A stretch of DNA of 64,000 bases, from NCBI GenBank assembly GCA_965197745.1, contig CBDANS010000005.1, positions 1 to 64,000 of the forward strand, read 5' to 3'. Made by a program: the position numbers. Shown here piece by piece: positions 39,001 to 42,000 of the stretch (position 1 is the stretch's first letter; every line of letters starts with the position of its first letter). The DNA comes from Opitutales bacterium. Its GTDB lineage: Bacteria > Verrucomicrobiota > Verrucomicrobiia > Opitutales > PNEW01.

Positions 39001-42000
39001 GCCTATTCCACGCACAGGGTTCTTGAGCTTTCTGAATCTGAGGGGGCGTTTTTTTTGTGTTTAACATTGATGCTGTCAGCTGTCTAAAAATTACCTTAAT
39101 CTCACTTTTGAAAAGTAGATCAATAAAAAAGAGTAGGACGATTGCCACGACCCTCTTTTATCGATCTACCCTTTGATTAAGGGTTGTTTTAGCTTGTCCA
39201 CAATGAAGGCCAACCTGCGGACACATAAAAAAAGAGTGACTGGTCGTTCGAAGGTTGCCTGAGCAGACCGTTATTGGCGGCAGTGTACGCGGACATAAAG
39301 GGACGGCCCTAAAAGGAGATATTAGAAGGTGAACCGCACAATCGTCATTATGTCCAGTTGATTTGTAAATAATTGATATTCAACATATTAAATTTATACA
39401 TAAAATTCCTAACGGTCTTAAACAAACGCTAATTAAGGGGTAAGCCCCAGTTTAAAACTCTATTAAGGCGAACCAAACATACTATTGCTATACGCACTGC
39501 GCCCTATAATTCAGAGTATCCCTATCAAGAAAACATTCACCGTCTGACATCGCCGGTGTCCGCTAATTTGGGAATAAACCAATCTGGGAGCAAATCAGCT
39601 TACAGGGGGCGGGGGGGGTGCGATCAGAAGACCGACCCCCTAGTCCATATATCGATTTACTCACCGGAAAATATATTTACAAAGGGCAAAGTTTGGCAGC
39701 AAAACAATTTAAAACGAACACTTTTAAATTGGCTCTAAAATGTACGATCACCTTTGTTATGAAACAAATTCCCCTGCCTTAAGATGCAAACGCCCTTTCT
39801 CGAGGCGCTCAGACCCCTTCACGGGCAAATCAAATCATTGGTGATGCTTCAAAAAATTCACCCCGCAAAGAGTAAACCAGCCAGCACTATGACAGGGCTC
39901 TCAATTGTTCTCAGGGAGAGTTTATGAGTTCCCGGTGTTATCGCGCAAGCTTGCCCGGCCTCTTACGGACCCTCATCCAGGTAATAGCCCGCCCCGATCA
40001 GAATCGGCAGTCCAAAGGATACGATCCTTTTAACGAAAGTCACCTTGCGCTCCTCCATTGCACTCGCCGGATTGCGCTTCGTGTAATACAGGAAGCTTTC
40101 TCCGAAAGCCTCTGCAACGCTCACTAAATCATGCTCTTCGACCGTTCCTTTCAATTCAGATACACCCGACCCCTGGCTGTATGGATCTCCGCTAAACAGC
40201 GTGTAGCCATAAGTATCAATGGCAAATAAGTAGATTGATTCGTGTTTCCATCGCGGATCCGTGGTCAAAGTGTTGATCGCAAAATAGCCTTTCATTTCAA
40301 GCTCCATCGCGGCGCAGCGAACAAACTCCTTGAGTCTCTCGTTGGATGGATCGTTATCGAGCAACATGGCGTTGACCTCTTCACTGTTGCACGTGCCCGG
40401 GATGTCGCGCCGGTAGATCCCCGCGCCAATTACAGCGGGAGTCCCGTTCCAGTCTATGCTCTTGACGTAGGAAGCCTTCGGCTCATCGTAGCCGGTGTCC
40501 GGATTGCGGAAGGAGTAGTAGAGCCAACCCTCACCGAAGTGGGTCGCGATACGATAGGCTTCCAGGTCGATGTTGTTACCGAAGGAGTCGATGAAAAAGC
40601 CCAAAGGCTGCCCTTCTCTCGAAGGGTCGGGCGGGAAGACAAAGCTTCGAGGCTGATCGCTCACCACTGTCACTTCGTCGACAAAAACATAGATTGGACC
40701 GCTTTTCCAACGAACGTCCTCGTGAAAGGCCCGACGGGCTTCATCAAATCCCACTTCCTGGACAAACTCGTAAGCACATTGCACGAACGCCTGAATGTCT
40801 TCCGGTGTGCGTACGGCACGAGCTTTGATAGAGTGGTCTTCACAAGACAGAACTTCAGCAGTGCCGAACGTTGACGACACCGCGCACATTGAGATTAGCG
40901 CAATCAGAAAGGGTAAGACACTTCGGTTCATCATTTAAAAATATTCGGGGTAGTTCGCTTTTGGAAACAACGGGAAATCATATTGTATGATTTGATAAAA
41001 TCTGTCAATGGGGCCAAAAAGGTTTCAAACTTAGACGTACCCCGGAAGCTTGGGTAAAGCAATCTACAACTCCTGAGATAGACAGTGATCGGTAAAGCGT
41101 ACGATAAATACATGGGCTTGGTGATCGTAAGAATTGGCAGCAACAATGATTTAAAACGAAACGCATTTTATTGGCTCTAAAATGTACGATCACCCATCGT
41201 TATGAAACTTACCCTGCCTTAAGATGTAACTGCCCTTTCTCAAGGCTCTCAGACCCCTTCACAGGCAAGTCAAATCAAGCTTCGAAGTTTCAAAAAGTTC
41301 CCCCCAGCCTTGATAACATGCAATCGAGCGTAGAAATGTAAGCATTATCTTTTAGAATATTTTGCCGCGGTAAAATCTGTTCCTTAAAGATATTGTCTGT
41401 GTCTGCTTGGGACAGCTCATTTCAAATATTAAAATGATCATAGATCAAAAGCATGCTGATTACCTTTGAGGTTTTTATTATTATGTTTTTAATCACCAGA
41501 TCGACCGGTGGTCTCACTATTAATTTACTCACCAGAAAATATATTTACAATCGAGCAACGCTTAACAGCAAAACAATTTAAAACGAACACTTTTAAATGG
41601 GCTCTAAAGGAACGATTACTCTTCGTTATGAAACCATTCCCTGCCTTAAGATGCAAACGGCCTTTCTCGAGGCTCTCAGACCCCTTAAAAGACTTTGCTT
41701 GATGAATTCATGATCCCTTATCTTTTTATGCAACATCCATTGCATCTATTTGATTTCAAATATTTACCTCCCAGATAAAAAAGAATAATTTAGCCGTCAT
41801 AAAAATCCCTTAAGATCTATATCCCGACAAAGCTCTATAATATCGACTTCACAATCGGCCTCCAAGGCCTCGACAATGTCGTCCTTTTCACCGCCTTCTC
41901 TTAAATAGTCTGCGATCAGTGATAGCCGTATTCTCTTTTCTTTATCTGTCGGTTCAAAGTTTGCACAATACTCAATCCAGACCTCTTTGATTGCATTAAT

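What a model noticed while it worked through the whole genome (the two positions that open the first line are those of the whole stretch)
39049..39961. An 850-nt ORF-free conserved module behind output-less dCache sensor genes in integrase islands: candidate large non-cod [...]
Eight copies of a 790-930-nt sequence (74-91% identical) have no open frame in any of six frames, yet are better conserved than neighbouring genes. Four start at the stop codon of a 270-325-aa dCache_2/sCache_2 sensor protein without output domain (g00306, g02210, g03087, g03760); a 200-nt piece recurs upstream of the same genes. The module ends in a GC-rich hairpin plus T-run on the strand of the sensor gene. I propose a large structured non-coding RNA (or long structured 3' UTR) carried by integrase-bearing islands. 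Copies: C5:39049-39961(-), C7:1665425-1666332(+), C6:1510856-1511709(+), C7:951004-951937(+), C6:568402-569270(-), C7:1057830-1058617(-), C6:918283-919108(+), C1:6335-7187(+). [...]
Evidence so far: It fills the largest gene-less gaps; nhmmer: 8 near-full and 17 partial matches. Six-frame reading of five copies: 8-25 stops per frame in 900 nt, longest open stretch 28-135 codons; substitutions fall 102/85/72 on the three phases. No Rfam family at E<=0.1. Alignment of 8 copies and 3 from relatives: long invariant blocks, one variable segment in two versions, terminal GAGGATCG-TGT-CGATCCTC hairpin then TTTTTT. RNAalifold on 806 columns: forward strand -80.9 kcal/mol, 146 pairs, 23 with changes on both sides; reverse -74.4, 13; ten column shuffles -37 to -53, 7-13. 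8 and 11 matches in the two family relatives, up to 90% identical although flanking genes of these genomes are 74-77% identical [...]
(Added by a program. Inside this text positions count along the whole contig: contig position 1 is position 1 of the stretch shown here. "Call 12" and the like, gene names such as g00115 and contig names such as C1 are that model's own, and its searches are not shown. The text may have been shortened before it was handed on; [...] marks where a part breaks off. The agent that wrote the report below was given it as the finding of a first reader that could run no searches.)

Follow-up and report, generated by a model that had tools for sequence, protein, structure and literature searches.

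The report
Conserved ORF-free tail of island cargo
A 0.75-kb stretch without any gene, repeated on mobile islands of an uncultured Opitutales bacterium, is real and mildly conserved, but it does not look like a large folded RNA and its job remains open.

Summary
The repeat is real. There are 8 near-full copies in this genome and 5 more in two relatives. It has no conserved ORF, and 8 of the 13 copies abut a Cache-domain gene. The unit is composite: a ~100-nt segment that travels with the gene, a 140-nt "head" (A, 36 copies), a C-tract, a segment in two versions, a highly conserved 155-nt block (B, 22 copies), a 3' part, and a sense-strand hairpin plus T-run.

The "large structured RNA" reading is not supported:
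- A has no consensus fold.
- The structure conservation index is 0.0-0.6 on both strands.
- The reverse strand scores almost as well as the forward strand.
- The compensatory changes come from two haplotypes that fold differently.

The module diverges at about half the rate of the gene's fourfold sites. It recombines independently of the gene and sits on unrelated island backbones, which argues against an origin or integrase arm site. It was found only in this family.

My best reading, at about 0.4, is a non-coding transcription unit or long 3' UTR of an exchangeable cargo cassette, conserved at the level of primary sequence. No RNA data exist. Interest is modest.

The parts
39963..40934 (-). 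Cache-only protein gene (323 aa, N-terminal hydrophobic leader, no output domain). It is probably an extracytoplasmic ligand-binding protein rather than a signalling sensor.
   Evidence: Pfam dCache_2 6.3e-18 and sCache_2 3.4e-11. The nearest solved relatives are Cache ligand-binding domains of chemoreceptors, 4k08 at E 1.1e-6. Relatives in Acidobacteriota MAGs are stand-alone, tandem, or fused to SBP_bac_5 in 3 of the 10 Acidobacteriota proteins scanned (12 proteins in the call; 2 are Opitutales paralogues).
40982..41008 (-). Sigma-70-like promoter of the Cache gene (TTGACA, 15 nt, TACAAT), about 50 nt upstream of the ATG.
   Evidence: Read directly from the sequence. It is conserved in the 'up2' class of the A alignment. 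Activity is not shown.
41137..41275 (-). A piece, the copy just upstream of the Cache gene ('up2'). Its end lies 203 nt from the ATG.
   Evidence: nhmmer with the A profile, E 2.7e-37.
41566..41697 (-). A piece, the further upstream copy ('up1'). It is followed by about 60 nt that resemble the start of the module body and then by unrelated non-coding DNA.
   Evidence: nhmmer E 1.9e-34. Alignment.
39866..39962 (-). Segment linked to the gene's 3' end. It belongs to the Cache gene cassette, not to the module proper.
   Evidence: It is present after Cache genes that have no full module (profile positions 4-159 only at C6:178214, C6:1504734 and C7:11492). It is absent from the four copies without a gene, which start at query position 66-127. 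Its first 48 nt are the least diverged part of the module, with a mean pairwise difference of 0.026.
39696..39835 (-). A piece inside the module, the 140-nt 'head'. It is conserved in sequence and has no conserved fold.
   Evidence: 36 distinct copies in three genomes. RNAalifold gives -0.31 kcal/mol, 4 pairs and 0 with compensatory change.
39605..39618 (-). Homopolymer tract C8-G-C5. Its length varies between copies.
   Evidence: Alignments. One- and two-base length variants at 39611 appear in metagenome contigs (table 4).
39480..39600 (-). Variable segment in two versions: v1 in 9 of 13 copies and v2 in 4 of 13. The versions have similar length and little identity.
   Evidence: Alignment A2. 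10 of the 14 pairs with 'compensatory' changes lie here (helices 6, 7 and 10). The versions fold differently when folded apart.
39320..39475 (-). B block, the best conserved part. It is AT-rich and contains the invariant motifs GACATAAT and TTGTGCGG.
   Evidence: Alignment A3 of 16 copies. Profile R1 finds 22 copies, all in family f1: G000 11, G001 4, G002 7.
39170..39319 (-). 3' part, with nested inverted repeats and a conserved run of 5-7 T (39227-39233) that has no strong hairpin before it.
   Evidence: Helices 17-20 show mostly invariant or G-C/G-U changes. SCI is 0.46-0.58 on both strands. The T-run hairpins have dG of -2.3 to -5.9 kcal/mol in 12 of 13 copies.
39115..39169 (-). Intrinsic-terminator-like hairpin followed by T6 (39125-39130) on the strand of the Cache gene. 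In the window copy A/T runs flank it on both sides.
   Evidence: Inverted repeat I2. Fold. Across copies, dG is <= -6.6 in 10 of 13 and <= -12 in 7 of 13. The hairpin is degenerate or lost in 3 copies.
38950..39114 (.). Tail shared by most copies. It holds a terminator-like site on the opposite (+) strand (39027-39056, hairpin then T8). In most other copies homology ends about 240 nt after the T-run.
   Evidence: Terminator scan. Downstream comparisons and alignment. The end motif is found only at module tails.

Best explanation
The module is the non-coding end of an exchangeable cargo cassette carried by integrative islands of one Opitutales family.

The cassette is a short tandem array of units. 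Each unit begins with the same 140-nt head (A). The units are a short non-coding one, the Cache-type binding-protein gene with its own sigma-70-like promoter, and a ~550-nt non-coding body (C-tract, two-version segment, B block, 3' part).

I propose that the body is transcribed in the direction of the Cache gene, either as its ~840-nt 3' UTR or from a start of its own. Transcription stops at the hairpin plus T-run at 39125-39169. A second terminator on the other strand shields the unit from outside transcription.

Its conservation is mostly of primary sequence, in blocks of 20-40 nt. It would therefore act as a weakly folded RNA, or as an RNA/DNA binding platform, rather than as a compact ribozyme-like fold.

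Shown: the anatomy, the lack of coding, the mild constraint, independent recombination, and restriction to one family. Inferred: transcription, its direction, and any activity.
For: - No terminator-like site on the gene's strand was found by the scan between the Cache stop codon (39963) and the terminal hairpin.
- The terminal hairpin plus T-run is kept in 10 of 13 copies, including 4 of the 5 copies without a gene.
- A convergent terminator-like site lies in the shared tail.
- A has the same orientation as the unit that follows it in all 36 copies.
- Of 10 Cache genes in G000, the 5 with an A upstream are exactly the 5 followed by a module.
- Constraint: the module differs by 0.09-0.17 in pairs of the same version, where the gene's fourfold sites differ by 0.13-0.31. 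At the locus syntenic with G001 the figures are 0.12 against 0.25.
- Conservation is uneven, from 0.03 to 0.29 per 50-nt bin.
- No conserved ORF and no protein-level relative in the genome (5 stray tblastx hits out of 184).
- Cargo rather than backbone: the genes just upstream are unrelated between island types. Integrases are 88, 50 and 32% identical, while module identity does not follow.
- The C5 and C7 Cache genes are identical, yet their modules differ by 12%.
Against: - Transcription was not observed, because no RNA run holds the stretch.
- No convincing promoter for the body was found. The scan's 6 promoter-like sites equal the shuffle expectation of 6.8.
- An 840-nt untranslated tail would be exposed to Rho, and the conserved C-tract could end transcripts early (inference).
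- Structure signals are weak and alike on both strands, so nothing ties the conservation to RNA rather than DNA.
- The rate comparison with fourfold sites is confounded, because gene and module have separate histories.
- Three of 13 copies have lost the terminator, and several copies are cut by IS3 elements.
Confidence: 0.4

Rival explanations
1. DNA-level cis element. A and the conserved blocks are protein-binding sites (operators, an enhancer-like region, recombination or replication sites) that act on the islands or on expression of the Cache genes. The terminators merely insulate them from transcription.
For: - Conservation is of primary sequence with no fold, above all in A (36 copies).
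- Both strands score alike.
- A lies at a fixed 188-263 nt upstream of 5 Cache genes.
- In some islands the array directly follows replication-initiator-like and DnaC-like genes (phrog_270 at 9.2e-26, phrog_50 at 3.9e-28).
- The tail ends where homology between copies ends, and it carries repeated TGACAG-like words that also occur upstream of two integrase genes (direct reading).
Against: - No iteron family beyond shuffles: the largest 10-mer families have 8 members, against 6-8 in shuffled sequence.
- No conserved DnaA box and no GATC excess.
- The module is shared by backbones with unrelated upstream genes and with integrases only 32-50% identical, whereas cis sites normally co-vary with their proteins.
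- No flanking direct repeats or tRNA-derived att repeats were found.
- About 550 nt of near-continuous conservation is much more than typical operator sites need.
Confidence: 0.25
2. No present function. The module would be a relic, for example of decayed genes or former regulatory DNA, that hitch-hikes with the Cache cassette. It would look conserved because the islands spread recently between co-resident genera and copies are homogenised by recombination.
For: - Mosaic histories: gene identical but module 12% different; v1/v2 versions do not follow the backbones.
- Between-genome identity of module and Cache gene (82-91%) exceeds that of the CARDB flank (75%), as expected for recent transfer.
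- Copies are truncated by IS3 elements, and 3 of 13 have a decayed terminator.
- It is confined to one family.
Against: - The module diverges less than the fourfold sites of the gene next to it in most same-version pairs.
- Divergence is strongly uneven along the module, with blocks near-invariant in 13-16 copies.
- There are few indels among v1 copies, 10-36 gapped columns out of ~870 in the pairs that exclude L008, whose copy carries a ~110-140-column deletion.
- No trace of a coding ancestor.
Confidence: 0.2
3. One reading: a large RNA with a specific conserved secondary and tertiary structure, in the manner of OLE, GOLLD or ROOL.
For: - Size, lack of ORFs, long conserved blocks and the terminator.
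- The consensus fold beats column shuffles (-52 against a mean of -25 kcal/mol), and 14 of 105 pairs change on both sides.
- The observed covariation score exceeds all 500 shuffles.
- Nested helices in the 3' part show G-C/G-U alternation.
Against: - The reverse strand does nearly as well (-48.1, 10 pairs).
- SCI is 0.0-0.6, and below 0.5 across the central ~450 nt.
- 'Further pair types' are not above shuffles: 59 against 59.6, reached in 365 of 500 shuffles.
- Covarying cells come from one v1/v2 split, which is one or two events, and the versions fold differently.
- A has no fold.
- The single-sequence z-score is only -1.84.
- No Rfam family matches.
Confidence: 0.12

Closest known systems
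Large bacterial non-coding RNAs found by comparative genomics
   Same: Several hundred nucleotides, ORF-free, with long conserved blocks. GOLLD and HEARO are also carried on mobile DNA. A terminator sits at the end.
   Different: Those families are defined by many covarying helices. Here no Rfam model matches, and conserved structure is weak and not strand-specific. The module is known from three genomes of one family only.
Long bacterial 3' UTRs and 3'-UTR-derived regulatory RNAs (general knowledge, recalled)
   Same: The module starts at a stop codon, shares the gene's strand, has no intrinsic terminator found in between, and ends in a hairpin plus T-run.
   Different: At ~840 nt it is far longer than usual. 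It persists in 5 of 13 copies without the gene. It carries an internal copy of the element that also lies upstream of the gene. Transcription was not observed.
Cis-acting regions of phage satellites and integrative islands (SaPI/PICI origins next to rep genes; P4 ori and crr with repeated units; recalled)
   Same: An ORF-free block lies beside replication-initiator-like and helicase-loader-like genes in some islands. Direct repeats of 140-200 nt are spaced 0.4-1.4 kb apart.
   Different: There are no iterons or DnaA boxes. The module occurs with unrelated backbone genes and with divergent integrases. It is also present where no integrase or rep gene is nearby, as in the window.
Integron cassette arrays (units separated by attC sites; recalled)
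   Same: A tandem array in which each unit is bounded by the same repeated element. Units are gained or lost between copies. A metagenome contig joins one A to another (joint 41175 to 39751).
   Different: A has no imperfect-palindrome structure of the attC kind. No integron-type integrase is adjacent. Only three unit types were seen.

Membership tests
Any Rfam RNA family | Covariance-model match at or near the gathering score | tested here: not met
   cmscan of 38000-42000 at E <= 10 gave 5 hits. The best, mir-9447, scored 26.5 bits against a gathering score of 67. All are chance-level hits to eukaryotic or unrelated families.
Large structured ncRNA (OLE/GOLLD/ROOL-like class) | Conserved secondary structure supported by covariation and specific to one strand | tested here: not met
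   A: -0.31 kcal/mol and 0 covarying pairs in 36 copies. Body: forward -52.0 with 14 pairs, reverse -48.1 with 10 pairs. SCI is 0.0-0.6. Pair types are not above shuffles. Power is limited to 13 related copies.
Large structured ncRNA (OLE/GOLLD/ROOL-like class) | No protein-coding potential | tested here: met
   No ORF of 25 aa or more is conserved in position inside the module in 13 copies. ORFs in the window copy are 78 aa or shorter and are not shared. tblastx finds no paralogous coding sequence.
Large structured ncRNA (OLE/GOLLD/ROOL-like class) | Transcribed as a discrete RNA | not testable with these tools
   No listed run that holds the stretch is RNA. The four runs laid are metagenome contigs and carry no expression information.
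Intrinsic (Rho-independent) terminator | GC-containing hairpin directly followed by a T-run on the transcribed strand | tested here: met
   The hairpin before T6 has dG <= -6.6 kcal/mol in 10 of 13 copies and <= -12 in 7 of 13. It is lost or weak in C6a, C1 and L008. Termination activity itself is not shown.
Replication origin of an integrative or satellite element | Iterons and/or DnaA boxes with an AT-rich unwinding region, matched to the element's initiator | tested here: not met
   10-mer families are no larger than in shuffles. DnaA boxes with at most 1 mismatch number 0-1 per copy and are not conserved in place. The module is shared by islands whose upstream genes are unrelated. An AT-rich block does exist (B).
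attP arm / integrase-binding region | Lies at the element's end, flanked by att repeats, and co-varies with the integrase | tested here: inconclusive
   The tail ends where homology between copies ends. No direct repeat with the integrase-proximal end or with the tRNA genes was found. Module identity does not follow integrase identity. Only the last ~240 nt, not the 750-nt body, could be an arm.
MITE / non-autonomous transposable element | Terminal inverted repeats and insertion into varied targets | tested here: not met
   The head against the tail of 4 copies shows inverted matches of 10 nt or less, E >= 0.076. All copies lie in the same relative position within the same array.
Integron cassette array | attC-type imperfect palindromes between cassettes and an adjacent IntI integrase | tested here: not met
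   A shows no palindromic fold. Nearby integrases give ordinary Phage_integrase hits and are absent from 5 of the 8 loci. IntI-specific features were not examined.

The most novel reading that the evidence does not exclude
The body is a new, lineage-restricted non-coding RNA gene of about 0.55-0.75 kb. It has its own 140-nt control head and its own terminator. It is carried as cargo beside secreted Cache-type binding proteins and is swapped between island backbones and between genera. It works through conserved single-stranded sequence blocks, for example as a sponge or platform for a protein or for other RNAs, rather than through a compact fold.
Probability: 0.25. Interest if true: 0.6.

Novelty: new member of a known kind. 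Interest (0 to 1): 0.33.

Why it matters
Conserved ORF-free stretches of this size are uncommon in bacteria, and they are the usual starting point for finding new large RNAs. This one deserved a test.

The result narrows the options. It is not coding. It is not a known RNA family. It is not a transposable element of the MITE kind. It is probably not a backbone cis site. The evidence for a folded RNA disappears under strand and haplotype controls.

What remains is a mildly constrained non-coding unit that moves as cargo with a family of secreted Cache-domain binding proteins. Those proteins are themselves shared with Acidobacteriota MAGs. If the unit is transcribed and active, it would be an example of a mostly unstructured long regulatory RNA on mobile islands of an uncultured Verrucomicrobiota lineage. 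If it is not, it is an instructive false positive for covariation counts made on a few recombining copies.

Tried and rejected
- Expression: no RNA holder was listed for 39049-40934. The one read-laying run used DNA-type contigs and gave only fragmentary cover, length variants in the C-tract, and one A-to-A joint.
- Wider distribution, all negative:
  - blastn of the module against 400 genomes of the phylum gave no real match: one 30-nt hit at E 7.4e-4.
  - Among 40 relatives, only G001 and G002 match.
  - The sequence profile of block B in 150 genomes of the order found real matches only in family f1, plus 6 hits at E 0.002-0.007 that I treat as chance in AT-rich DNA.
  - An exact degenerate pattern from block B gave 0 matches in metagenome contigs and 0 in viral contigs.
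  - blastn against the phage and plasmid collections gave no match.
- Homologues of the Cache gene in Acidobacteriota MAGs are not followed by the module (nhmmer).
- Pseudogene idea: tblastx gave nothing outside the repeat family.
- Small conserved peptides: none. A 47-aa reverse-strand ORF across A loses its ATG in many copies (direct reading).
- Promoter hunting by eye and by scan gave nothing above chance for the body.
- Island ends: no tRNA-derived or terminal repeats were found. Searches for an empty site in G001/G002 failed because synteny is broken or the flank is missing.
- The protein-atlas look-ups of two backbone proteins gave only unnamed clusters, half of them viral.
- The literature search on Opitutales, symbionts and mobile elements listed nothing on this element. 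I saw listings and the starts of abstracts only.
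Full report
**The repeat.** The window region 39049-39961, read on the minus strand, has 8 near-full copies in the 4.45-Mb, 7-contig genome. There are 17 further partial matches, and a profile search gives 29 hits. Two genomes of the same family hold 10 and 16 matches, including 5 near-full copies. The third family member (82% complete) and 37 other families of the order hold none. Relatives fetched by protein similarity are labelled 'MAG: Opitutales bacterium'.

**Not coding.**
- ORFs in the window copy are 78 aa or shorter.
- No ORF of 25 aa or more is conserved in position inside the module across 13 copies. The only shared ORF is the 3' end of the neighbouring gene.
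- tblastx finds no coding relative elsewhere in the genome (5 stray hits out of 184).
- Rfam gives only chance hits to the terminal hairpin.

**Anatomy.** Alignments and the pattern of partial copies show that the 'module' is composite.
- The first ~100 nt (39866-39962) belong to the Cache gene. They follow Cache genes that have no module, and they are missing from modules that have no gene.
- Next comes a 140-nt head, A (39696-39835). It also occurs twice upstream of the gene (41137-41275 and 41566-41697). I collected 36 distinct copies of A in three genomes.
- After A come a C8-G-C5 tract of variable length, a ~120-nt segment in two versions (v1 in 9 copies, v2 in 4), and the best conserved 155-nt AT-rich block, B (39320-39475). 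B has 22 copies, all in this family.
- The 3' part has nested inverted repeats. It ends in a hairpin followed by T6 on the gene's strand (39115-39169).
- A shared tail of about 240 nt follows. It carries a terminator-like site on the opposite strand.
- The terminal hairpin is kept (dG <= -6.6 kcal/mol) in 10 of 13 copies and is strong (<= -12) in 7. It has decayed or been deleted in 3.

**Context.**
- Around the 8 copies I found tyrosine integrases within 8 kb in 3 loci and beside one degenerate copy. I also found excisionase-like HTH genes, a DnaD-like initiator and a DnaC-like loader in some loci, and many IS3-family insertions, some of which cut the module.
- The window copy has no integrase nearby. 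It is syntenic with a locus in G001.
- The genes directly upstream of the A array are unrelated between island types.
- The integrases are 88, 50 and 32% identical to each other. Module identity (65-91%) and the v1/v2 versions do not follow these groupings.
- The array therefore behaves as exchangeable cargo, not as part of one backbone.
- Of the 10 Cache genes in this genome, the 5 that have an A 188-263 nt upstream are exactly the 5 followed by a module.

**Is it a folded RNA?** The evidence is against a large conserved fold.
- The 36 A copies give a consensus of -0.31 kcal/mol with 4 pairs and no compensatory change.
- For the body (13 copies, 621 columns), RNAalifold gives -52.0 kcal/mol and 105 pairs, 14 with changes on both sides.
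- The reverse complement gives -48.1 kcal/mol, 91 pairs and 10. Twelve column shuffles average -24.9 and 5. Both strands beat the shuffles about equally.
- In the count of structure pairs the covariation score exceeds all 500 shuffles, but the number of further pair types does not (59 against 59.6). The pairs that change on both sides lie mostly (10 of 14) in the two-version segment.
- That segment reflects one split between two haplotypes. Folded separately, v1 and v2 give different helices and similar energies on both strands.
- Sliding windows give a structure conservation index of 0.0-0.6. It is below 0.5 across the central ~450 nt and no better on the sense strand.
- The single-sequence z-score is -1.84 for the sense strand and -0.97 for the antisense strand.
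- Only the last ~200 nt show modest local hairpins, and again on both strands.

**Is it constrained?**
- I compared the 8 copies that adjoin a Cache gene. The gene's fourfold sites differ by 0.13-0.31 in 27 of the 28 pairs and by 0.00 in the C5/C7a pair. Its first and second codon positions differ by 0.06-0.15 in the same 27 pairs, which is high and suggests relaxed or diversifying selection. The module differs by 0.09-0.25 over all 28 pairs, and by about half the fourfold value in same-version pairs.
- At the locus syntenic with G001 the module differs by 0.12 and the fourfold sites by 0.25. The CARDB-gene flank is 75% identical.
- Divergence is uneven along the module, from 0.03 to 0.29 per 50 nt.
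- The comparison is confounded. The C5 and C7 genes are identical over 969 nt while their modules differ by 12%, so gene and module recombine separately.
- I read this as mild purifying selection. It is not proof.

**DNA-level readings.**
- I found no iteron family beyond shuffles.
- There are no conserved DnaA boxes and no GATC excess.
- There are no terminal inverted repeats.
- There are no att-type direct repeats or tRNA fragments at the far end.
- Together with the lack of co-variation with the integrase and replication genes, this weakens an origin or attachment-arm role for the 750-nt body. The last ~240 nt (the tail) could still be an arm.
- A, with its sequence-only conservation and fixed position upstream of units, looks most like a DNA-level control region.

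**Distribution.** The module was not found in any of the following:
- 400 sampled genomes of the phylum;
- 148 other genomes of the order, searched with the B profile, beyond 6 marginal hits;
- the metagenome and viral collections, searched by pattern;
- the phage and plasmid records.

The Cache gene itself has relatives at 49-68% amino-acid identity in Acidobacteriota MAGs of 57-66% G+C. There it stands alone, occurs in tandem, or is fused to a family-5 solute-binding domain, and it lacks the module. It is therefore probably a secreted ligand-binding protein rather than a sensor that has lost its output domain.

**Verdict.** The interpretation as a large structured RNA does not.
- My best reading, at confidence about 0.4, is a non-coding transcription unit or very long 3' UTR at the end of a cargo cassette, bounded by convergent terminators and conserved in primary sequence.
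- The DNA-level control or binding region is the main rival (0.25).
- A functionless hitch-hiker kept similar by recent spread and recombination comes next (0.2).
- The folded-RNA reading stands at about 0.12.
- No RNA data were available, so the decisive test is strand-specific transcript mapping.

Noticed in passing
window 36303-37079 (3' end of the 1180-aa CARDB/trypsin-like/PPC gene, 33537-37079): The last ~250 codons of this gene have well over 100 paralogous copies (63-81% nucleotide identity) spread over contigs C1, C4, C5, C6 and C7. This is a very large family of proteins sharing one C-terminal domain, possibly a sorting or anchoring domain. Pfam names nothing in that part.
   Followed up: no
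window 39963-40934; loci L024-L035: The Cache-only protein is shared at 49-68% amino-acid identity with MAGs labelled Bryobacterales, Acidobacteriota or Terriglobia (57-66% G+C, against 45% here). There it occurs singly, as three tandem genes (L030), or fused to an SBP_bac_5 solute-binding domain (L025, L034, L035). This suggests transfer across phyla and a binding-protein role.
   Followed up: partly
window 39963-40934 against G000 C7:1664452-1665420: The two Cache genes are 100% identical over 969 nt, while the modules that touch them differ by 12%. A recent gene conversion or recombination has its breakpoint at the stop codon.
   Followed up: partly
L019 (G000 C1) 6371-6529; window 39605-39618: Long homopolymers lie inside the repeat family. 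There is a run of about 18 G in the variable spacer of one A copy, and a C8-G-C5 tract whose length differs between copies and between metagenome contigs. These could be slippage-prone sites or assembly noise.
   Followed up: no
L015 1186-1291 (G000 C7 about 944189-944294) and L015 1670-1725: Short repeats of 54-66 nt next to a tRNA-Met gene recur dozens of times in G001 and G002. A 56-nt repeat recurs at least 9 times on contig C7. This is a REP-like or att-like small repeat family.
   Followed up: no
L013, L016, L018, L019, L020, L021 (own genome): IS3-family elements (HTH_Tnp_1 / rve / rve_3, often split into two or three ORFs) lie directly beside or inside module copies. They account for at least two of the copies without a gene. 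The same IS end recurs at least 10 times (window 31049-31461).
   Followed up: partly
window 41175 joined to 39751 in contigs of runs X1 and X6: Metagenome contigs join the upstream A copy to the module's A copy with 18 other letters between them. This fits a different unit order, or a related locus in other strains, and exchange at A.
   Followed up: no
window 26775-30224 and 31486-33264: A Type ISP restriction-modification enzyme gene (Type_ISP_C at 1.1e-64) lies here. Beside an IS3 copy there is an SRAP-domain gene fragment with split ImuB/Y-family-polymerase-like ORFs. The neighbourhood is rich in mobile and defence genes.
   Followed up: no
L023 (G001, OY829953.1:4315576-4324544): Here module pieces lie upstream of two tandem Cache genes and in the opposite orientation (head to head). 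The array has been rearranged or inverted in this relative.
   Followed up: no
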